IMG/VR virus record: IMGVR_UViG_3300013128_000003
Location: 1-47,693 of that record
DNA length: 47,693 nucleotides
Reading direction: 5' to 3' (one strand)
DNA from: a virus
Lineage: Duplodnaviria > Caudoviricetes
The notes under the pieces are model-generated. The model was not told the DNA's origin. It did not search any database and worked only from the letters and a program-made list of their open reading frames with translations. Of the stretch, positions 810 to 47,467 are shown one piece after another. Position 1 is the stretch's first letter, and each line of letters starts with the position of its first letter. The position numbers and the translations under genes were made by a program.

Positions 810-1195
810 GGGCGTATACTGGTTTCGATTTAGTAGTACACCTATGTTAGGCACGTAGAGGATGATAGTTGGCCTCTTTAAAACATCTATTGCAACATTA
901 ACTGCTAAAGATAATGTAATCAGCTATGACTTCTCTTATGATGACGTTGTAGCAGTTGCGGCCTAAGTTGTCGCACCATCCTTCACATTGAAGTCTGATA
1001 TTTGTGTTGGGTGTAAATTATTGGACTGGATCAAACGTTTGATTTGCGCAAATGATCAAGATACTAGTAAATCTTAAGGGCAATATTTTTAGATATTTTT
1101 CATTATTAACCCCTAACAATTTAAAATATATAAACGTGTAGGCTGATATAAGTTATCTATTAAAGACAAGGGTTCAACTCCCTTTACGTCCACCA
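810..1195 (+). ncRNA. ssrA: tmRNA (one-piece)
   Basis: 5' GGGCGTA-TACTGGTTTCGA pairs with 3' TACGTCC-ACCA (G3:U70); T-arm AAGGG-TTCAACT-CCCTT; 386 nt; internal tag frame ending in VAA-stop. Confidence 0.95.
904..966 (+). other. tmRNA tag reading frame (A)AKDNVISYDFSYDDVVAVAA*
   Basis: Resume codon GCT follows TAACT; ends GTT GCG GCC TAA, the typical hydrophobic-Ala-Ala degron end. Confidence 0.85.
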
Positions 1196-10828: not shown

Positions 10829-12301
10829 ATGTCAACCACCTGTAATTTAATACAACAAGTAAAAGTTAGTGACTTAGTAAGATATAATGCTCTAACAGCT
10901 AAAGATTTAATACTGACCATTGAGTCAGGATCATCAAATGATTTATATTCTAGAAAAAGCACATTTGGGGATGTAGTTGATTTTCTATCAAATGTTACGG
11001 GATCATACACAGGAAGCTTTTCTGGTTCAGCAAAGACATTAAAAGGCATTTTCACCGGAAGTTTCACAGGTAGTTTTAAAGGTTTAACTACTGGTATTTT
11101 CAGCGGAAAAAGTACAGGCAGTTTTACAGGCAGTTTTAAAGGTTTAACTACTGGTAAGTCAGTTACTTCTGGATCTTTGAGTGGAAGTTTTTATGGATCT
11201 TTACTATCTAAAAAAGCAAATTTATCTGGTAGTTTTAGCGGTAGTTTATTTGGATCTTTAGTAAGTAAAAATTCTAAATTAACAGGAAGTTTTAATGGTG
11301 TAACAAGAGGTCGTTTTTCAGGAAGTGTATCAGCTAGTATAAAAGGTTATATTAGTGCTTCCAATCATTATAACGCAAATAAAAAAGTAGCATTTTATGG
11401 TACGGCTAGTTGTGCTAAAACCGCATCCTATGCTTTGAATCTTGGGGGATTAGTATCTGGAACAGGTACTTCAAATCAATTTACTTATTGGTCTGGTACA
11501 AGTACGTTGGAATCTACCAATTATATTGTAAGAAATAGCACTATTAATAATTTAGGTAGTATGCCTGCGGGTAGAATTACGGTCAATAACCCATTACAAT
11601 TTAATGCTGTCGGAGAACAAATAATACAATATTCATCCTCTGGAAATTCAATTTATGGATTGGGATTGCAAAATGGAAATAACTATTTAAGAACTACAGC
11701 TAATTTTGCGATTTATTATTCTGGATCACACGTTAATAGTAGTTTTCTTACCGGCAAAGATATAACTTGGCAATCTGGTAAATCAGGATGGGGAGTACTA
11801 GGAATTAGACAAAGATTATTAAGTGTTGGTAATGTTGTAAGTTCTGATAATGTTAATGCACAATTACATTTACATTTAAGTGGTTCAACAGGTTGGCCAA
11901 CTGGTTATAATCCAAATACAAATGTATTTTTAATTACATCAGGTAGTAATCAAACAAAATTGTTACGCGTAAGCGGAAGTGGTCAATTAGATGTAAGAGG
12001 AGACATAGTAGCACTTTCTACATTTGCAACTTCCGATTATAGATTGAAAGAAAATATAAAGCCGTTGGAAAACGGTTTGGATAAAATAAATCAAATAAAT
12101 CCTATTGAATTTATCTGGAAATCAAACAAGAAAAAAGACTATGGCGTTATTGCTCAAGAAATAGAAGCTTTATATCCAGACTTTGTTTCGGAAAATTTGG
12201 AGGGGTATAAAGTTGTTAAATACAATCCTCTCGTTGCTTTATTAATAAAATCTATTCAGGAATTACACAAAGAAGTTCAAGAACTTAAAAATAAAAATTG
12301 A
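10829..12301 (+). CDS. tail fibre with C-terminal peptidase S74 intramolecular chaperone
   Basis: GSF(T/S/K)G repeats; SDYRLKENI cleavage motif, GVIAQEIE, terminal coiled coil. Confidence 0.9.
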   Translation: MSTTCNLIQQVKVSDLVRYNALTAKDLILTIESGSSNDLYSRKSTFGDVVDFLSNVTGSYTGSFSGSAKTLKGIFTGSFTGSFKGLTTGIFSGKSTGSFTGSFKGLTTGKSVTSGSLSGSFYGSLLSKKANLSGSFSGSLFGSLVSKNSKLTGSFNGVTRGRFSGSVSASIKGYISASNHYNANKKVAFYGTASCAKTASYALNLGGLVSGTGTSNQFTYWSGTSTLESTNYIVRNSTINNLGSMPAGRITVNNPLQFNAVGEQIIQYSSSGNSIYGLGLQNGNNYLRTTANFAIYYSGSHVNSSFLTGKDITWQSGKSGWGVLGIRQRLLSVGNVVSSDNVNAQLHLHLSGSTGWPTGYNPNTNVFLITSGSNQTKLLRVSGSGQLDVRGDIVALSTFATSDYRLKENIKPLENGLDKINQINPIEFIWKSNKKKDYGVIAQEIEALYPDFVSENLEGYKVVKYNPLVALLIKSIQELHKEVQELKNKN

Positions 12302-12321
12302 ATTTGATATATATAGGGTAT

Positions 12322-15207
12322 ATGCCTGTAAATATATTAAATCGATTCGGACCATTGAGTTTTAAAAGTCAGACTAATAATACTGAAAATCTTTCTATAA
12401 ACAGTTTATTAAGTAACTTTTACAACCCAGGATCTAATAATTTTTCATTATCACAGAGTTATTATCAAATTGAGAATAGAGTTGGTAATCCAAATACAGA
12501 CACTAAAACAATTAATATAACTAATCCACTTGGCGCTGGCTTTATAAACAAAGACAATAATCGACCAATAAAATTTAGTGAGTTTTATGGATCATCATTT
12601 TTTAGCAGTTCATTTAAAGTGGAAGCTTCTACGGGTATATCAACTGTAAAAATTTATTCTCCGAGTGTAATTCAAAATAATAATTTTTTAACAAATAATA
12701 TACAAGACAAAGTTTATCAATATACGTTATATTCAAAATCAGATGTTACAATTCCAATTGCTGATTCAGGATGGAATAAAGTTTTTTCATATGCCAAATC
12801 AGGAGATAACACAGAACAATTTTATAATTTGGTAAATACAAAAGCTTATAAATTAATCGCTAAGGATTGTCTTTCAAATGCATTTAGTTCAAGTATGTTT
12901 ATTGGTACGTGCGCTAGTAGTGTTACCGATAATACTACTTATACATATAATATAACTGCGGCAGATCTACCTACAGCTAGTTCATTATTGTTACAAAAAA
13001 TAAATGAAGACAAAGTTGTTAATCAATACACAAACACAAAGTTGACGGATCTATCTAATATATTAACCAACTTAAATAATTTATTACAAAACCCAAATAT
13101 ATCTACATTTAAGTCTTCAGGTCAACTTTTACCTACTATCGTTTACAAAGATAACCTAGGATATAATAGAACATTAAACTTCGATGGACTGATTTTGCAA
13201 AAATCAAATGTACCAAATGGAACTTTAGGGTATTTTTATATAGGTTTAGTAACGGCTACAAGTTCGGGCGGTACAAATCCAACATTTGAATATGCATTTG
13301 AAAATACATCAACCTTTGGAAAAATAACTTTGTATATTATAGGCACTCAAGATTCAAGTGGAACATCTTGTACACCACCGCCGGCGCCGACAACAGTTGG
13401 AAATTTTCCAACCAATATTTCATTTACAGGCCCGAGATGCGGTTATTTAGATTGCGGTGATGGTTATACTCAACCAGTGTGTAATCCAACTTCCACCACG
13501 CAAATAAAACATAGTGGTAGCTTCATAATCACGAATAATAACAATGCGGAAATGTTAGCTACTATAAGTCCAACTTGGACAAAGTTAGACGGTACTCCAT
13601 TAGATTCACTTGTAAGTACTGTATCTTTTACCCCCACAGGAATGTTTTCTATTCTCGCTAATAGTACTAAAAAAATAAGTATTGGTTTCGGTTTATCGGA
13701 TTATCAAAATACACTTCAACCAAAAACTTTTACGGCTAAAGGTTCGGTTAATCTAACATTACCACTGGGATATTCTCCACAATCGCAAAATTGTGAAATT
13801 TTAGCTAATTTTGATAAAAATTCATGTAATATAAGTTTGCCTCTTAAACAAACATGGATTACACCTAGTTCTTGGCAAGCTGTGGGAAATCAGTTATCTT
13901 GCAATTCAAATCCAAATTCTGCTCAGATTATATCAAATCCGTCTTCTACAATTCAAGTGAGACACAGTGGTAGTTTTACAATAACAAATAATTTCATCAA
14001 ACCAATTACATTTACATTTAATAAAAATAATTGGCAAAATCAAAATGGAACTACTATAAATCCATTACTTACTCCAATTGAAATGGATCCGGATTCGCCA
14101 ATTACTTTACAACCAAATCAGAGTAAAAAAATATCCGTATCATTTGGAAAAGCTAACTATAACAATCCAAGTCAACCAGCTACAGTTGATTTAAGATGTC
14201 CGTTTACTGCTACAACAGATGCCGATTTTTATATAAATCCAGTCACTGAGAATTATTTTTATTTTTCCTCAGATAAAAATAGTTGTGTTGTTGTCAATCT
14301 TAAAACGCCAAATTGGCCTGTAAGTATAGGTTTGGGCGGAGATAATGCTATAAATTGTGATTGTGGAACATCAACTTCGCCGCAAGTATGTGATCCTACA
14401 CTTTTAACACAAATAAAACATACTGGCAGTTTCATAATTACAAATAACAATCCTGATTCTATGACCATTACGTTGAATCAAAACTGGACCAATAATGATG
14501 GAAGTGTATTAAATTCACTTTTATTGCCTATTATTATCGATCCGCAATCTCCTATTTCGATTGAACCTTATAAATCTAAAAAAATAAGCATCGGCGTTGG
14601 AATTTCAAACTATACAAACGAAAGTCAACCTAAAAGTATAGATATAAAAAATTTAGCAGTCGCTTCTTTACCTGCTGGTTACACGGAAACGTCAAAAGAC
14701 GTATCAATTAGATTTTCGTCCGATAAAGATAAATGCAAAAAACAAGTTGTTGTACCTGTTGCTCCTCCAGTAGTTACACCTGTTACTAGTAATTTAGGGT
14801 GTATAAGTTATAATCCTCGTATGCTTGAAAGTTGGACGCAAATAAAACTTAGAACGGTGGTAACAATTGCATATAAAACTGGTACATCCGCTGATAAAAC
14901 TTTTGCCAAAGCAGTTGTTAATGCTTTGCCAAATTTAGGATGTACATTACCAACAAGTATAACACAAGATGGTTATTCAGTTGGTATCAATTGGACTTTG
15001 GATAATGAAGGGGAACAAAGTTATGCATGTACAACAGGGACATCAGGTCAATTTTCAGGCACTTATACAGTTGTAACAACCAATGCCATATTAGGAAGTG
15101 CAAATTTTTATATATTGTTCTTAAGAAAAAACAATAATAATCTAGACGGTGAAAATTACATTAATTTGTGTCAGACAGGTGGTGTTTCGTCAAGTGGTGG
15201 AGGGTGA
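12322..15207 (+). CDS. tail fibre tip adhesin-like protein with three Cys-containing beta-rich repeats; frame continues through TGA into a Hint domain
   Basis: ATG 12322 preferred (TATATATA 6 nt upstream) over the TTG track start; IKFSEFYG motif; three about 151-aa repeats; ends SSGGG-TGA. Confidence 0.8.
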   Translation: MPVNILNRFGPLSFKSQTNNTENLSINSLLSNFYNPGSNNFSLSQSYYQIENRVGNPNTDTKTINITNPLGAGFINKDNNRPIKFSEFYGSSFFSSSFKVEASTGISTVKIYSPSVIQNNNFLTNNIQDKVYQYTLYSKSDVTIPIADSGWNKVFSYAKSGDNTEQFYNLVNTKAYKLIAKDCLSNAFSSSMFIGTCASSVTDNTTYTYNITAADLPTASSLLLQKINEDKVVNQYTNTKLTDLSNILTNLNNLLQNPNISTFKSSGQLLPTIVYKDNLGYNRTLNFDGLILQKSNVPNGTLGYFYIGLVTATSSGGTNPTFEYAFENTSTFGKITLYIIGTQDSSGTSCTPPPAPTTVGNFPTNISFTGPRCGYLDCGDGYTQPVCNPTSTTQIKHSGSFIITNNNNAEMLATISPTWTKLDGTPLDSLVSTVSFTPTGMFSILANSTKKISIGFGLSDYQNTLQPKTFTAKGSVNLTLPLGYSPQSQNCEILANFDKNSCNISLPLKQTWITPSSWQAVGNQLSCNSNPNSAQIISNPSSTIQVRHSGSFTITNNFIKPITFTFNKNNWQNQNGTTINPLLTPIEMDPDSPITLQPNQSKKISVSFGKANYNNPSQPATVDLRCPFTATTDADFYINPVTENYFYFSSDKNSCVVVNLKTPNWPVSIGLGGDNAINCDCGTSTSPQVCDPTLLTQIKHTGSFIITNNNPDSMTITLNQNWTNNDGSVLNSLLLPIIIDPQSPISIEPYKSKKISIGVGISNYTNESQPKSIDIKNLAVASLPAGYTETSKDVSIRFSSDKDKCKKQVVVPVAPPVVTPVTSNLGCISYNPRMLESWTQIKLRTVVTIAYKTGTSADKTFAKAVVNALPNLGCTLPTSITQDGYSVGINWTLDNEGEQSYACTTGTSGQFSGTYTVVTTNAILGSANFYILFLRKNNNNLDGENYINLCQTGGVSSSGGG
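13390..14736 (+). repeat. three tandem protein domain repeats (about 151 aa)
   Basis: Q(I/V)(K/R)H(S/T)GSF.ITNN at 13501, 13954, 14410; each followed by KKIS.(G/S).G and DK..C. Confidence 0.9.
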
Positions 15208-15606
15208 CCAGCTGCTTGGCAATTGATGGAAACTTTAGAACGAGGATTTATACCCGCTAGAGAAATTGAAATAGGTATGCATCTTCGTGACACTGAATTT
15301 GGTAAATGGAATAAAGTAAGTAAAGCGTACATTGATAGAGCGCCAATATATAGAACAATTATTGATGGACAAATATTTGACGTTGATAATAGTCACAAAT
15401 GGTACATTGGAAACGGAGAATGGACAACTGTTACAGAGATTAAAAAAGGCGATAAACTCGAAAATGTAACAGGTGAAAAATTAACTGTAACTGATAATTT
15501 TGTGTTATATGAAAACGAAGAATTTATGCATTTAAACTGTGAAAATAGTAGATTTGTTATGGGAACTGGTATTATTGGTCACAATTTTCCATTTCAAAAA
15601 TTTTAA
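15205..15606 (+). CDS. Hint (intein-like/BIL) domain whose Cys1 codon is TGA
   Basis: [TGA]PAAWQLMETLERGFIPAREIEIGMHL fits block A; DNSH block B; WTTVTEIKKGDKL; GIIGHN block G; in frame with the upstream gene. Confidence 0.85.
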
Positions 15607-15618
15607 TTTTTTTTGATA

Positions 15619-15648
15619 TTGACAACTATATATTACTGATGGTAAAGT
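15619..15648 (+). promoter_or_regulatory. possible sigma70-type promoter of hsp20 (TTGACA-N18-TAAAGT, TG extension)
   Basis: Consensus -35, weaker -10. Confidence 0.45.
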
Positions 15649-15722
15649 ACTATCACGGCAATGCTCGAGTGAGGTTGCTAAGATAATAAGTTCAATAGAA
15701 TTATTAAAAGAAAGGTAAATAT

Positions 15723-16208
15723 ATGGCAGTAATTAAATATAGTAGTCCGTTTACATTGCGTCACATTGACCGTGACGAATTTCTAACTCCGTTTGATCGT
15801 GTATTTGATGAAGTATTCGCAAATCACTTTCCTGAATTAACAAAAGAACTTGGAGTTGGATTCTTCGAAAAACAGAGTTATCCCCGTGTAGATGTAGTTG
15901 ATTATAATGATCGTGTGGAAATTTTAGCGGAAATTCCAGGTCTAAGTAAAGACGAAGTATCGGTTGAAGTACAAGAAAATGTACTTACCATTAGTGGTCA
16001 AAAGATCAAAAATGTGGAAGATAAAGAATCTACTGGAAAATATATTCGTAGAGAGTTGAAACATAGTAGTTTTAAACGTAGTTTCACTCTTGGTGATCAG
16101 ATTGATAAATCAGAACCACAAGCAAAATTTGAAAATGGTTTATTAAAAGTAACACTAGCAAAAATAAAGCCGGTTATTCCGGTAACTAAGAAAGTAAAGA
16201 TTGGTTAA
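15723..16208 (+). CDS. hsp20: small heat shock protein (Hsp20/alpha-crystallin)
   Basis: YPRVDV, AEIPG, LTISG, RRE...SFKRSFTL, AKFENGLLKVTL, C-terminal V-x-I; Shine-Dalgarno AGAAAGGT. Confidence 0.95.
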   Translation: MAVIKYSSPFTLRHIDRDEFLTPFDRVFDEVFANHFPELTKELGVGFFEKQSYPRVDVVDYNDRVEILAEIPGLSKDEVSVEVQENVLTISGQKIKNVEDKESTGKYIRRELKHSSFKRSFTLGDQIDKSEPQAKFENGLLKVTLAKIKPVIPVTKKVKIG

Positions 16209-37404: not shown

Positions 37405-37710
37405 ATGGCAACATCACCAGACGCAAAAGTAATTGATCGTGAATCATTAAAAACAAGCTTGGAAGCTAGATATCGAGCCAAACAAAAAGCTGGTGGCACG
37501 TTTGATGCATATAAATCTGATGCAGATACTCCTGGTAATATGTTGGAAGGCTTGCAAGGTGGACTCGGATATACACAAAAATCACGTGATTGGACCACTG
37601 AACCAGGGTTTAAGACAAAATCTCAGACTATGCAAGAAAATTTCAACAAGAAAGCTTTGAATTATATCGACTCTCAGCCTGGATTTAATACGAATCGATA
37701 TTTTCGTTGA
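37405..37710 (+). CDS. hypothetical protein
   Basis: 101-aa ORF; TATTTATT upstream. Confidence 0.8.
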   Translation: MATSPDAKVIDRESLKTSLEARYRAKQKAGGTFDAYKSDADTPGNMLEGLQGGLGYTQKSRDWTTEPGFKTKSQTMQENFNKKALNYIDSQPGFNTNRYFR

Positions 37711-37722
37711 TATGTATTAAAA

Positions 37723-42347: not shown

Positions 42348-43310
42348 ATGTTTGTCTGTGATAATATTAATTTAGTTGGATTTGGTGATTTAAAAATTCA
42401 AATAGACGAAAATGGTGAATTTTGTACTTTTAATAAATTTGATATAAATTATGAATTTTATATTGTTATAAAAAGTTTAGATTCTAATCTAATTTCAAAT
42501 TTAATGTATCATCATTGTCCAATTGGATATGATTTTTGGAAATATAATCACAGTATATATTATATACAAGATGTAATAAATAAAATTCATCCTGGCATTT
42601 GTTTGGAAATATATGATAAAGATAAAAAACAATTAATTTTTTCAAAGAAATATAGATCTTTTTACAAATATAAATGCGTCGAATTGCAGTCAAAAAAGTT
42701 TGATATCACATATCCATCCTATTATACATTTTTCAACGATTCATATTTTTTACAAAATTTTACTGTAAAAGACGGCGACGTTGTTTATGATTTAGGAGCA
42801 AACATAGGTGCTTTTTCAATTGCGTGTTCAAACTATGAAGTTAAAAAGATATATTCATTTGAACCACATCCAGAAATATATGATTGTTTAAATTATAACT
42901 TAAATGTATATGGCAAAAACTGTACTGCCTATAATAGAGCTATTTCTGACAAATTTAAAAAAGTAAAATTTGGAAACACTGAGACAACTGTGGGATCTAG
43001 TATCAATGAAAACGGCACATTTGATGTAGATGTCATTAATCTTGAACAATTTGTTCTGGAAAATAATTTAGAATTACCAACTTATCTTAAAATAGATATT
43101 GAAGGTAGTGAATATGAATTTTTTGAAAATACAAGTGATAATTTTTTTGAAAAAGTTCATAGTATATTTTTTGAATTTCACAATAACAACGGAACAAATG
43201 TTTTAAAAGTAGTAAATAGATTATTAAACTTGGGATTCAAAATGAACCATACTGAAGATGCATTTGATCACAGTATTTCTCATATGAATACTGTATATTT
43301 TATTAGATAA
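42348..43310 (+). CDS. FkbM-family SAM methyltransferase
   Basis: VYDLGANIG, FEP, LKIDIEGSE, FEFH. Confidence 0.92.
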   Translation: MFVCDNINLVGFGDLKIQIDENGEFCTFNKFDINYEFYIVIKSLDSNLISNLMYHHCPIGYDFWKYNHSIYYIQDVINKIHPGICLEIYDKDKKQLIFSKKYRSFYKYKCVELQSKKFDITYPSYYTFFNDSYFLQNFTVKDGDVVYDLGANIGAFSIACSNYEVKKIYSFEPHPEIYDCLNYNLNVYGKNCTAYNRAISDKFKKVKFGNTETTVGSSINENGTFDVDVINLEQFVLENNLELPTYLKIDIEGSEYEFFENTSDNFFEKVHSIFFEFHNNNGTNVLKVVNRLLNLGFKMNHTEDAFDHSISHMNTVYFIR

Positions 43311-43313
43311 ATT

Positions 43314-45326
43314 ATGAAAAAGATTTTATTTATAGCTCCTCATCTTTCTACCGGCGGACTACCTCAATTCTTGTTAAAAAAAATACAATCGTTAATTAAC
43401 GATTATGAAATATATTGTGTCGAATACGACGACATAACCGGCGGAGTATTAGTTGTACAAAGAAAACAACTTCAAAAAATTTGTGGGAAAAATTTCTACA
43501 CATTGTCATCAAATAAGTTTGAATTATTAAAGTTAATTGATAACATAAAACCGGACATTATTCATTTAGAAGAAATGCCTGAATATTTTATGGACGCTAA
43601 TTTAGCAACCAAAATTTATAATAAAGATAGACAGTATTTAATCGTGGAAACTTCGCACGATAGCAGTTTTGATCCAAAACGGAAGAGAGTTTTTCCTGAC
43701 AAATTTACATTTGTAAGTAATTACCAAAAAGTAAACCTTGAATCTTTGGGAGTAAGTACCACAGTAATAGAATATCCTATATCCGTTAAATGTAGAAAAA
43801 ACCGAACAGACGGATTAAAATTTCTGGGATTAGACGAAAACAAAAAACACGTATTACACGTTGGATTATTTACACCCAGAAAAAATCAAAAGGAATTTAT
43901 AGAATATGCTCGATCATTAGAAAATGAGAACGTTCAATTTCATTGTTTAGGTAATATGGCGGATAACTTTAAAAGTTACTGGCAACCTTTATTAGAAAAT
44001 CTACCTAAAAATGTAAAGGTTTGGGGTGAAAGAAAAGACGTAGAAAATTTTTATAGTTGTATGGATCTTTTTCTTTTTACAAGTAGAGGTCACTCAACAG
44101 ATAAAGAAACAGCTCCTATAGTAATTAAAGAAGCTATCTCATATAATATACCATCTTTATTATATAATCTGCCTGTTTATCTAGATAGATACAAAGTATT
44201 CGATAATATAAAATACTTAGATGAAACCAATTTCAATAAAAATGTAAAGTTAATTAAAAAAGAATTGGGGTTAATTTCTGAAGGTGAATTTTTTGATCTT
44301 AAAATCGATAAAAAATCAAATAATGATACAGTCGTAGTCATATCAACACATCCTAATTATAAAGTCGTAGAAGACACAACTTTACAATCTATCAATCAGG
44401 CTAAAAAAGCTGGTTATAAAGTTATATTATCATCACATCATCCTCTTAGCATAGATTTACAAAAAGCAGCCGATTATTGCGTTTATGATGCTAATAATCC
44501 TATATTGAAACATAATTTTTATAACAGATGGAACTATGAAGTTAATAATACGAAAATAAGTTTATACTTTCCACCATCAGATTGTGACAATTATCACGGA
44601 TTAGCCGTTTTGTTAAATTATTACAATGGCATTGCGATGGCAAATAAACTTGGGTATAAGAATACTATTTGTTTTAATTATGATATAATAGTTTCAGATT
44701 TAGATTTTAATAAATTATACGATGTAGACGAAATTCTACAGTATAAAAAAGGATTTTTCTTTTACAACAAATCACTAGAGGGTGACACATTTAAAACTGT
44801 TTTTCACGCCATCAATACTAAATTCTTTTTAGATGTATTTGAATATTCTACACCAACTTCTTATATGGAATTTGTTAATAGAAAAAATATATCAAATGGT
44901 TTAGAACAATATTACTATAACAAATTGATCTCAAATAAAGATGAGTTGTATATTGACTATATAAACGATGAGGAAAAATATTTGAGTAACAGTCAGAATA
45001 ATTTGTTTTCTATGGTAGAATATCTTTCAGTATTAAAGATGAAAGATCAAAATAAATTTGCAGTATTTACTTATGTCAATAACAAGATAGACGACAGAAT
45101 AAATGAAATTCTAATTAAAAAGAATGGCAATTTAATTAACAATTACAAATACACTATCTCTCAAAAGTCGTGTTTTTATTTACCAAATGATTTTCAAAAT
45201 GATAACTTTTATGAAATTGAAAATAATCTATATGATAAAAATAAAATTTTATTAAAGAGTTATAAAAAATCGTTTAGAAGACTTGAAGACATAGATATTA
45301 ATGGTTTTATAGATATTAAGCAATGA
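43314..45326 (+). CDS. GT4-type glycosyltransferase with additional C-terminal domain
   Basis: PHLSTGGLP, VGLFTPRKNQ, DLFLFTS...ETAPIVIKEA. Confidence 0.85.
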   Translation: MKKILFIAPHLSTGGLPQFLLKKIQSLINDYEIYCVEYDDITGGVLVVQRKQLQKICGKNFYTLSSNKFELLKLIDNIKPDIIHLEEMPEYFMDANLATKIYNKDRQYLIVETSHDSSFDPKRKRVFPDKFTFVSNYQKVNLESLGVSTTVIEYPISVKCRKNRTDGLKFLGLDENKKHVLHVGLFTPRKNQKEFIEYARSLENENVQFHCLGNMADNFKSYWQPLLENLPKNVKVWGERKDVENFYSCMDLFLFTSRGHSTDKETAPIVIKEAISYNIPSLLYNLPVYLDRYKVFDNIKYLDETNFNKNVKLIKKELGLISEGEFFDLKIDKKSNNDTVVVISTHPNYKVVEDTTLQSINQAKKAGYKVILSSHHPLSIDLQKAADYCVYDANNPILKHNFYNRWNYEVNNTKISLYFPPSDCDNYHGLAVLLNYYNGIAMANKLGYKNTICFNYDIIVSDLDFNKLYDVDEILQYKKGFFFYNKSLEGDTFKTVFHAINTKFFLDVFEYSTPTSYMEFVNRKNISNGLEQYYYNKLISNKDELYIDYINDEEKYLSNSQNNLFSMVEYLSVLKMKDQNKFAVFTYVNNKIDDRINEILIKKNGNLINNYKYTISQKSCFYLPNDFQNDNFYEIENNLYDKNKILLKSYKKSFRRLEDIDINGFIDIKQ

Positions 45327-47467
45327 AAATTATACAAGTTAATTTAGGTATACTTCCAATTCCACCAAATGGATGGGGCGCTGTAGAAAAAATTGTTTGG
45401 GATTATTATCTCGAACTAAATAAAAAAGGATTGGAGTGTCAAATAAAATATCTAAACGATATACAGTACTCGGATGATATGATAGTTCATACACATGTAG
45501 CTAATTTAGCTATAGAATGTCATAAACGAAAGATTCCATATATTTTTACATTACACGACCATCACGCTTATTTATTTGGAAAAAATTCATCTGTTTTTAA
45601 TGAGAACTTTCAAGCAATAGAACATAGCATAATATCTACTTGTCCATCAAAATATTTAGTGGATTATTTTGGAAGTAAAAAATTACGCTACTTTCCACAT
45701 GCTGTAAATACAGATGTATTTAAGTTCAAAAATACTGAGAAGTCAGAACATAAATTATTATGTGTAGCAAACAATGGATATGTGAACGATCAATCGTATG
45801 ATAGAAAAGGATTTAGTTATGCCATTAAAGCTGCTAAAGATTTAAATTTGCCAATTACAATAGCCGGACCATCTAATAACAAAAAGTTCTTTGATAAACT
45901 AGATGTGGATCTTAACAATTATGACAAATTAACTAAATTGTTTGATTTGACCGAAGAACAATTAATCAATTTATATAACGAACATTCTATATTTTTGCAC
46001 CCATCAGAATTGGAAGCTGGTCATCCAAATCTAACTCTTTTAGAAGCTATGAGTTGTGGTTTGCCAGTGATAGGAACATTCGAATCTACATCATATAATG
46101 GTATGATTGTTGTACAACGAGATGTAGAACAAATAAAATCCGCAATAAACACCATAATAAATAATTATGAAAAATATAAAGTTGAAGCGATAAACTCTGC
46201 AAAAGAAAATTCTTATGATGTTAGAGTAAATCAATTAATAGATTTATTTGACGAATACACGGAACGATTATTTGCTGTTAAACATATTGAGGTATATAAT
46301 AATTTAAAGAAAAATGAAAAAAGCATAAAAACAAATGCTATTTTTAGATACACATTCAACGACAATGCTAAAATCGAAGTAGACAATCCGTTGGATTCCG
46401 ATCAAGAATTTAACGTGGTGTTTTATAATAGCAACGATAATAGTGTGAAATATGAAACAAATCTTAAACACAACTGGTGGGGAAGTTGTAATTTCACTTA
46501 TTATATTCCATACGAAATACAAGTAAAAGATAAAAAAACAAATGAATTGGTCGATACATATAAATTAAATTTAAAAAATAAAAAAGTATTAATTGAATAC
46601 GAAAGTTTTAGTTTAGGCGACCAATTAGCTTGGATGCCAATTATCGAACAGTTTAGAAAAAAACACGAATGTGAGTTGTATGTAAAACTTCCATTAAAAA
46701 ATATTTTTGAAAGCAAATATCCTGAAATTAAATTTCTACCTTCAAATAAATCTATTTCCGATTTATATGCAACTTATAAATTGGGATATTATGTAGATGA
46801 AAATGGTCCAAATAATGATAGATGTAAAACTGATCCTAGAAAACAACCGTTGCAAAAAATAGCAAGTGAGTATTTAGGATTGCCTTATCAACCAGAAATT
46901 CCATTGTTAGATTTCAAGATAAAAGAAAGACCCATTAAAAAACGGTATGTAACAATAGCTACACAAAGTACGTGTCAAGCTAAATACTGGAATAATAAAG
47001 ATGGTTGGGAAACTGTTATTAAATATCTTAATGACAAAGGATTTGAAGTAATGTGTATAGATAAACACAAAACATTTGGAAACGGAAACGATTATGTTAA
47101 TAATATGCCTTCCAATGCTTTAAACTATACAGGAGACAAACCGCTGGTAGATAGAATGAACCAAATCTATCATAGCGAATTTTTTATAGGATTACCATCT
47201 GGATTATCTTGGTTAGCTTGGGCAATTAAAAAGCCAGTGGTACTTATAAGTGGATTTTCTTATCCATATACAGAATTTGATACTCCATATAGAGTTCAAA
47301 ACCATTCAGTATGCACAGGATGCTGGAATGACTCACTATTTGACAAAGGCGACTGGAAATGGTGTCCTAAATCAGATAAAAAAGAAGAATTTGAGTGTAC
47401 AAAAGAAATAACACCAAAAATGGTTATCGATGTTATTGACCAATTATTAATAGAACAAAAAATTTAA
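45323..47467 (+). CDS. GT4 glycosyltransferase fused to TibC/Aah-type (autotransporter O-heptosyltransferase-like) domain
   Basis: N-terminal PPNGWGAVE, RKG, EAGHPNLTLLEAM; C-terminal SLGDQLAW, QSTCQAKYWN, FIGLPSGLSWLAWA, CTGCW...WCP...ECTK. Confidence 0.88.
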   Translation: MKIIQVNLGILPIPPNGWGAVEKIVWDYYLELNKKGLECQIKYLNDIQYSDDMIVHTHVANLAIECHKRKIPYIFTLHDHHAYLFGKNSSVFNENFQAIEHSIISTCPSKYLVDYFGSKKLRYFPHAVNTDVFKFKNTEKSEHKLLCVANNGYVNDQSYDRKGFSYAIKAAKDLNLPITIAGPSNNKKFFDKLDVDLNNYDKLTKLFDLTEEQLINLYNEHSIFLHPSELEAGHPNLTLLEAMSCGLPVIGTFESTSYNGMIVVQRDVEQIKSAINTIINNYEKYKVEAINSAKENSYDVRVNQLIDLFDEYTERLFAVKHIEVYNNLKKNEKSIKTNAIFRYTFNDNAKIEVDNPLDSDQEFNVVFYNSNDNSVKYETNLKHNWWGSCNFTYYIPYEIQVKDKKTNELVDTYKLNLKNKKVLIEYESFSLGDQLAWMPIIEQFRKKHECELYVKLPLKNIFESKYPEIKFLPSNKSISDLYATYKLGYYVDENGPNNDRCKTDPRKQPLQKIASEYLGLPYQPEIPLLDFKIKERPIKKRYVTIATQSTCQAKYWNNKDGWETVIKYLNDKGFEVMCIDKHKTFGNGNDYVNNMPSNALNYTGDKPLVDRMNQIYHSEFFIGLPSGLSWLAWAIKKPVVLISGFSYPYTEFDTPYRVQNHSVCTGCWNDSLFDKGDWKWCPKSDKKEEFECTKEITPKMVIDVIDQLLIEQKI

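What the first reader, a model, noticed from the sequence alone, without database searches (positions are those of the whole stretch)
15181..15606. In-frame UGA at the catalytic Cys1 of an intact Hint domain on a tail adhesin: candidate selenocysteine or readthrough intein-like system
Seen: the adhesin-like gene ends SSGGG-TGA (15205-15207), and the same frame continues PAAWQLMETLERGFIPAREIEIGMHL...DNSH...WTTVTEIKKGDKL...GIIGHN-FPFQKF with no other stop. Known: Hint domains begin C-x-x-x-x-x-x-h-x-T/L-x-x-G-x-x-x-h-x-E-h-x-x-G and end H-N; residue 1 is the nucleophile that forms a thioester with the preceding residue. The TGA falls exactly on residue 1, and the track ORF (15223) begins mid-block A. 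TGA is a normal stop elsewhere (ATGA overlaps at 1645, 39161, 45323), so this is site-specific. Inference, four options: (a) Sec is inserted, giving a selenoester-forming Hint, which I do not know to be described in nature; (b) low-level readthrough gives two adhesin forms; (c) a TGY-to-TGA mutation is tolerated because it yields the same GGG-ended product as autocleavage; (d) sequencing error. By eye there is only a weak downstream hairpin (15215-15244, GAAA loop starting 22 nt after the UGA), loosely compatible with bacterial SECIS spacing. No tRNA-Sec or SelB is in this window.
Basis: partly seen in the sequence, partly recalled or inferred. Interest (0 to 1): 0.92.

Follow-up and report, generated by a model that had tools for sequence, protein, structure and literature searches.

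The report
Recent stop disables optional phage Hint
In one freshwater phage lineage the codon for the first, catalytic cysteine of a self-cutting (Hint) domain is a stop codon, likely a recent ordinary mutation that is tolerated because most relatives lack this domain altogether, and not a selenocysteine or a programmed switch.

Summary
The TGA at 15205-15207 is real: it sits at Hint position 1, the frame stays open for 132 codons, the predicted fold matches BIL/intein structures, and contigs from three further runs carry it. It is confined to one lineage: 18 of 19 distinct alleles have TGT/TGC, including a sister whose Hint differs by 2 residues. The domain is optional: 70 of 73 homologues of the upstream protein end without it, and 30 of 32 loci have no Hint DNA. 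The proposed SECIS folds at -0.9 kcal/mol against a published limit of -7.5. A general Hint motif with TGA at position 1 gave 0 matches, against about 8,800 and 2,100 with Cys codons. Most likely a recent nonsense change that yields the trimmed protein directly; the Hint looks intact because the stop is young. The gene is also a mosaic, with a patch from a Hint-less relative ending 14 bases before the stop. The scan noted the same thing before on other DNA (e1-8217399). Readthrough was not measured.

The parts
10829..12301 (+). Tail-fibre-like gene ending in a Peptidase_S74 chaperone domain; its stop overlaps the opening of the next ORF (context)
   Evidence: Pfam PF13884 E 2.8e-17; PHROG tail fibre hits
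12322..15207 (+). 961-aa protein with three Ig-like repeats (number varies among relatives), ending in a Gly linker; virion/adhesin role inferred from position
   Evidence: model of the last 302 aa (mean pLDDT 69.9) matches PapD/MSP-type Ig folds weakly; atlas leads 0.78-0.81 to Ig-like families; no PHROG match
14764..15191 (+). Likely recombination patch from a Hint-less relative, covering the last domain before the linker
   Evidence: 91.8% DNA identity to L160 against 79-80% in both flanks; trees of the N-terminal part and of this domain disagree
15193..15204 (+). Ser-Gly-Gly-Gly linker in front of the Hint cleavage position
   Evidence: Gly-rich in the homologues
15205..15207 (+). TGA at Hint position 1; TGT or TGC in all other alleles
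15208..15606 (+). Open frame for the rest of the Hint domain (132 aa), 2 residues different from the Cys-coded sister P0103
15215..15244 (+).
   Evidence: -0.9 kcal/mol; z-scores 0.04 to 0.78 for 15205-15270 and 15208-15260; model limit -7.5
15385..15396 (+). Block-B-like D-x-S-H (Asp where inteins usually have Thr; the Thr is recalled)
   Evidence: D60, S62, H63 invariant in 16 of 16 rows
15580..15585 (+). Terminal His-Asn pair, followed by Phe (no conserved nucleophile)
   Evidence: H125, N126 invariant in 16 of 16 rows; next residue F, A, G or S
15723..16208 (+). HSP20 gene; fixed downstream neighbour with or without the Hint cassette
   Evidence: Pfam PF00011 E 7.3e-19; about 135 bases after the stop in 30 of 30 Hint-less loci

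Best explanation
The TGA is likely a recent single-base nonsense change of the cysteine codon at position 1 of an optional C-terminal Hint domain, so the ribosome would stop at the bond that the Hint is predicted to cut and would release the Gly-ended protein directly, leaving the Hint DNA as a likely unexpressed young remnant. Shown: the stop, its position, Cys in all other alleles, absence of the domain in most relatives. Inferred: termination at the TGA, autocleavage in Cys-bearing relatives, and direction TGT to TGA. Whether the stop was neutral or favoured after the last domain was swapped in from a Hint-less relative cannot be told.
For: 18 of 19 distinct alleles have TGT (13) or TGC (5); the one TGA allele is the window's own. 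27 of 27 longer proteins with this Hint have Cys there. A contig of run X11, 59 differences over 14991-16200, has T at 15207; protein P0103, on a contig of the same length (5438), is fused through Cys and differs in the Hint by 2 residues that match two differences listed. 70 of 73 homologues of the upstream protein end without a Hint, one of them the window's own form; 30 of 32 viral loci end in TAA two codons before the Cys position with no Hint DNA. In the N-terminal tree the window is sister to P0103 (SH-aLRT 100) in a 6-row clade (99) that holds all 4 Hint-bearing rows and one Hint-less row, P0100. In the last-domain tree the window lies among 17 other rows, all Hint-less. No SECIS-grade hairpin; no TGA version of a general Hint motif in two collections.
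Against: The stop is at the most telling codon: 1 of about 66 single-base routes to a stop in linker plus Hint, 5 of 66 if the linker counts, though the finding was picked for that position. The Hint shows no decay. A stop at this position is rare: 0 against about 8,800 and 2,100 Cys-coded matches, so it is not a common route of loss. All TGA records are one near-identical population, so selection after the stop cannot be measured. Termination, cleavage and host are untested; only contigs, not raw reads, were laid.
Confidence: 0.86

Rival explanations
1. Leaky readthrough is used: most ribosomes stop, a minority would insert Trp or Cys by near-cognate decoding, giving a second, Hint-bearing form that matters to the phage.
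For: In E. coli TGA readthrough reaches high rates in some contexts under stress and inserts Trp, less often Cys (PMC11126739, passages). The base after the stop is C, recalled as a weak termination context in E. coli. The frame is open and the Hint intact. A related phage contig carries tRNA-Cys(GCA).
Against: Not conserved: 1 of 19 alleles. Trp, the favoured residue, is no nucleophile, and Cys insertion followed by cleavage would give the same product as stopping. Another ordinary TGA stop of the window also has C next. 70 of 73 homologues have no Hint to read into.
Confidence: 0.08
2. The TGA encodes selenocysteine, read by host SelB and tRNA-Sec, giving a natural selenoester-forming Hint domain.
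For: TGA aligns with an invariant catalytic Cys, the classic selenoprotein signature. An engineered DnaB intein works with Sec at position 1 (PMC10945757, passages). About 87% of BSepDB entries have a canonical SECIS, so its absence is not decisive (PMC13326102, passage). The host is unknown.
Against: The other hairpin (15233-15262, centroid -7.6 for the stretch) has its loop 38 bases from the UGA without a leading G. One-lineage distribution with a Cys sister 2 residues away. 0 TGA matches to the general motif in 185,579 genomes and 2.9 million viral contigs. No tRNA-Sec over cut-off, no TCA anticodon, no selB or selD in the window or in the partial related records searched.
Confidence: 0.02
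3. The phage has reassigned TGA to a sense codon (code 4 or 25 type), as some gut phages do.
For: Such recoding is described in phages, biased to structural and lysis genes (bioRxiv 10.1101/2021.08.26.457843, passages); low GC (30%).
Against: No in-frame TGA inside 38 long ORFs, and 5 of the 6 other TGA stops close again within 6 codons. The sixth (37708) joins two frames, but in the 2 relatives that could be read (L597, L601) the next gene is out of frame. Described reassignments give Trp or Gly, not a nucleophile. No suppressor tRNA found.
Confidence: 0.01
4. Sequencing or assembly error.
Against: Same TGA in L001 and L002 and in contigs of X8, X9 and X10, none marked as a possible source.
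Confidence: 0.01

Closest known systems
A-type bacterial intein-like (BIL) domains, e.g. Clostridium thermocellum BIL, PDB 2LWY
   Same: Hint fold (Foldseek E 3.4e-7; profile E 3.7e-4); about 130 aa; terminal His-Asn; sits in a variable protein (PMC7765530, passages)
   Different: Phage-encoded, at the C-terminus with 6 residues after Asn; D-x-S-H in block B; in this allele position 1 is a stop codon; below the PT-HINT cut-off
Mini-inteins (gp41-1, DnaB, DnaE)
   Same: Same fold (TM-scores about 0.7-0.8), Cys1 in homologues, terminal His-Asn
   Different: No conserved Cys/Ser/Thr after Asn, no conserved host protein on both sides, so no standard splicing expected
Bacterial selenoproteins (UGA plus downstream SECIS)
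   Same: In-frame TGA aligned with a catalytic Cys of homologues
   Different: No SECIS by the consensus model, no second TGA lineage, no Sec machinery found; the words intein and Hint do not occur in a 2026 review of prokaryotic selenoproteomes nor in the BSepDB text or its held supplement
Engineered Sec1 intein reporters (M86 DnaB)
   Same: Show that Sec at intein position 1 is chemically competent
   Different: Artificial, UAG-based; no bearing on natural use here
Stop-codon-recoded phages (TGA to Trp, TAG to Gln)
   Same: Low-GC large phage with an in-frame stop in a structural region
   Different: Here a single site; TGA otherwise terminates; no suppressor tRNA found

Membership tests
A-type BIL / Hint domain | Hint fold | tested here: met
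   Model pLDDT 89.5; all listed Foldseek hits are BIL, intein or Hedgehog Hint domains
A-type BIL / Hint domain | Cys or Ser nucleophile at position 1 | tested here: not met
   TGA in this allele; Cys in 18 of 18 other alleles, so met for the family, not for the window
A-type BIL / Hint domain | Block B His and terminal His-Asn | tested here: met
   H63, H125, N126 invariant in 16 of 16
A-type BIL / Hint domain | Autocleavage activity | not testable with these tools
   Needs expression of a natural Cys-coded homologue
Splicing intein | Cys/Ser/Thr at +1 and a conserved C-extein | tested here: not met
   +1 is F, A, G or S; tail of 6-16 variable residues
Bacterial selenoprotein | In-frame UGA aligned with Cys in homologues | tested here: met
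Bacterial selenoprotein | SECIS: loop 16-37 nt from UGA, G in first two loop positions, MFE <= -7.5 | tested here: not met
   -0.9 kcal/mol (own script, not bSECISearch); model from PMC13188914
Bacterial selenoprotein | UGA retained in diverged homologues | tested here: not met
   1 of 19 alleles; 0 in the general scans
Bacterial selenoprotein | selA/B/C/D available in phage or host | tested here: inconclusive
   None in window or partial related records; own genome not held, host unknown, selA not searched
Stop-codon-recoded phage | Many in-frame TGA codons and a suppressor tRNA | tested here: not met
Programmed readthrough | Conserved stop and context across relatives; measured extension product | tested here: not met
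   Stop not conserved; product not measurable here

The most novel reading that the evidence does not exclude
The phage lineage has just converted the catalytic Cys of a Hint domain to host-inserted selenocysteine through a non-canonical SECIS, making the first natural selenoester-forming Hint domain and a selenium-dependent processing step on a virion protein.
Probability: 0.02. Interest if true: 0.9.

Novelty: new member of a known kind. Interest (0 to 1): 0.16.

Why it matters
As a Sec or readthrough system it would matter a great deal, but the evidence points to an ordinary cause. What remains useful is modest: one gene family shows three natural states (Hint fused through Cys, Hint absent, Hint cut off by a stop at the cleavage position). 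This suggests that the trimmed N-terminal protein is the working form and that these phage Hint caps are dispensable. It gives a ready natural comparison for asking what C-terminal Hint domains do on phage proteins. The zero count of TGA at Hint position 1 against roughly 11,000 Cys-coded matches also limits how common a natural Sec-Hint class can be.

Tried and rejected
Own whole genome: not held. The nearest record G001 is a mixed 29-contig bin with giant-virus-like genes and tRNA contigs of another related phage, so searches in it do not speak for this phage. G007 (L063) is unrelated and is not counted. TGA-specific pattern in viral contigs: 11 stretches, 2 the same genome, 9 chance. Gly-Gly-stop/Trp-Phe pattern: 9 stretches, none a Hint, against about 440 estimated with Cys. 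No RNA holder listed, which is no evidence on expression. The full list of base differences to the X11 sister is not available: one search shows 31 of the 59 by my count, so no dN/dS was computed. Four stand-alone Hint-like proteins that start inside block A (P0118, P0121, P0154, P0188) lie on contigs of 0.7-2.7 kb and have no DNA context here; P0118 and P0029 have longer cluster members, so they are probably fragments, but a stop there cannot be excluded. No match among GenBank phages or PDB sequences for P0103. No Rfam match in 15100-15800. Separate translation of ORF 15223-15606: the nearest GGAGG lies 19-22 bases upstream and the product would lack the first 6-7 residues; not pursued. A self-BLAST did not delimit the repeats; they are read by eye. 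The careful N-terminal tree did not finish; the quick tree is cited.

Full report
Observation. The window looks like part of a large tailed phage (tRNAs and tmRNA; baseplate wedge and tail fibre families; partial relatives of 116-134 kb rated 34-48% complete). ORF 12298..15207, whose database form starts at ATG 12322 (961 aa, P0032), ends SSSGGG-TGA, and the frame stays open for 132 codons. The downstream part folds as a Hint domain: AlphaFold2 pLDDT 89.5, best Foldseek hits the C. thermocellum BIL domain 2LWY and the gp41-1 intein. In a 16-row alignment the other 15 rows begin with Cys where the window has TGA, and D-x-S-H and His-Asn are invariant.

Not an error. L001 and L002 match the window over 10,396 bases with 1 and 0 differences and carry TGA. 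Of 4 runs laid, contigs of X8, X9 and X10 cover the codon without other letters (depth 2.4-3.3); X11 holds a different strain. These are contigs, which drop rare variants, and the TGA holders may be one habitat or campaign.

The stop is confined to one lineage and is likely young. They collapse to 19 distinct alleles: 13 TGT, 5 TGC and 1 TGA, the window's own. All 27 longer proteins found with this Hint have Cys. The X11 contig (59 differences over 14991-16200) has T at 15207. Protein P0103 lies on a contig of the same length, runs through GGGC into the Hint, and differs from the window's Hint at 2 residues, which match two listed base differences; three further listed differences are synonymous. 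That P0103 is the product of this contig is my inference. With so little divergence an intact Hint is expected after a recent stop and says nothing about selection.

The domain is optional. Of 73 homologues of the C-terminal 410 residues, 3 carry a Hint and 70 end without one, nearly all at CQTGGVSSVG or CQTG; only the window's own form ends in GGG. At DNA level 30 of 32 loci end in TAA with no Hint sequence and HSP20 about 135 bases later; the other 2 are the window's genome. These 30 are redundant, at identity levels of 77-88%. In a quick tree of the first 345 residues (28 rows) the window pairs with P0103 (100) in a clade (99) with P0013, P0038, P0099 and the Hint-less P0100, so the domain was likely lost more than once.

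The gene is a mosaic. Residues 1-400 are 89-100% identical to P0103, residues 800-950 only 57-68%, against 82-90% to the Hint-less P0033 and P0054. Window 14764-15191 is 91.8% identical to Hint-less L160, flanks 79-80%, and in a tree of this domain (23 rows) the window sits with 17 Hint-less rows, apart from the 5 rows of its N-terminal clade. The patch ends 14 bases before the TGA. So this last domain occurs without a Hint in every other case seen; linkage alone can explain that, and selection for the stop is not shown.

Selenocysteine. The consensus bacterial SECIS needs a loop 16-37 nt from the UGA, a G in the first two loop positions and MFE <= -7.5 kcal/mol (PMC13188914, passages). A general Hint/intein block-A pattern with TGA at position 1 found 0 matches in genome contigs and 0 in viral contigs, while TGC gave an estimated 8,800 and TGT an estimated 2,100 stretches (estimates from 2 and 4 of 64 parts; the pattern needs C-F and does not cover this C-P subfamily or all Hints). 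No tRNA-Sec over cut-off was found in the window or 8 related records, mostly partial, no TCA anticodon among the tRNAs read, no selD or selB in 5 records. This is inconclusive for the host, which is unknown. Sec works at position 1 of an engineered intein (PMC10945757, passages). I found no natural Sec-Hint in searches (listings), nor the words intein or Hint in PMC13188914 or PMC13326102 and its one held supplement, which may be cut; subscription papers are not covered.

Readthrough and recoding. In E. coli TGA readthrough inserts mainly Trp, then Cys (PMC11126739, passages). Some leak is therefore plausible, but Trp gives a dead Hint and Cys followed by cleavage would give the same product as stopping. 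Genome-wide recoding as in bioRxiv 10.1101/2021.08.26.457843 (passages) does not fit: TGA terminates elsewhere.

Mechanism. Inferred from Hint chemistry (PMC7765530, passages): in Cys-bearing relatives the domain likely forms a thioester at the Gly-Cys bond and is released, leaving the Gly-ended protein; with Phe after Asn no standard splicing is expected. In this lineage the stop would give that product directly. The upstream protein has Ig-like repeats (moderate confidence) and follows a tail fibre gene, so a virion surface role is likely but unproven. Searches (listings) showed no study devoted to such phage Hint caps; PMC2874743 (passages) covers only engineered use.

Against my reading. 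The stop hits 1 of about 66 possible single-base nonsense routes, and such a stop was seen nowhere else among about 11,000 motif matches. Nothing was measured at RNA or protein level.

Verdict. A real, recent, one-lineage nonsense allele of an optional A-type-BIL-like domain (0.86). Interest 0.16.

Noticed in passing
window 15635-15725 (main stem 15658-15678): The HSP20 leader holds a conserved hairpin in 8 related loci, with 3 of 13 predicted pairs changed on both sides and no Rfam match; two further hairpins flank it by eye. Possible regulatory RNA or palindromic DNA site. The rows fall in two related groups, so the covariation may be few events.
   Followed up: partly
window 14764-15191: Recombination patch from a Hint-less relative inside the Ig-like protein gene; relatives also differ in repeat number and in inserted domains (647 to 1139 aa), as expected for a modular surface protein.
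   Followed up: yes
run X11, joint 15191 to 15662: The run that holds the Cys-coded sister also holds a contig that skips the Hint cassette, so both gene types occur in one sample.
   Followed up: no
P0108, P0109, P0027: The same Hint subfamily caps unrelated phage proteins after a Gly linker; most of the best 150 of 175 representative hits have it at the C-terminus. It behaves like a mobile cap.
   Followed up: partly
window 37708-37722: A TGA stop is followed in frame, 12 bases later, by a RuvC-like gene (name by eye); out of frame in 2 relatives, so likely chance.
   Followed up: yes
window 810-1195: Phage-encoded tmRNA with a long tag peptide (20 aa); could help predict the host.
   Followed up: no
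window 42348-47467: Run of genes that look by eye like a methyltransferase and glycosyltransferases next to SbcCD-like and primase-like genes; not searched.
   Followed up: no
G001: The record classed as a giant virus bin contains this phage's contig and tRNA contigs of another related phage: a mixed bin.
   Followed up: partly
L569 507-843 (G008): Three tandem tRNA-Leu(TAG) calls spaced 87 bases apart in a related phage.
   Followed up: no
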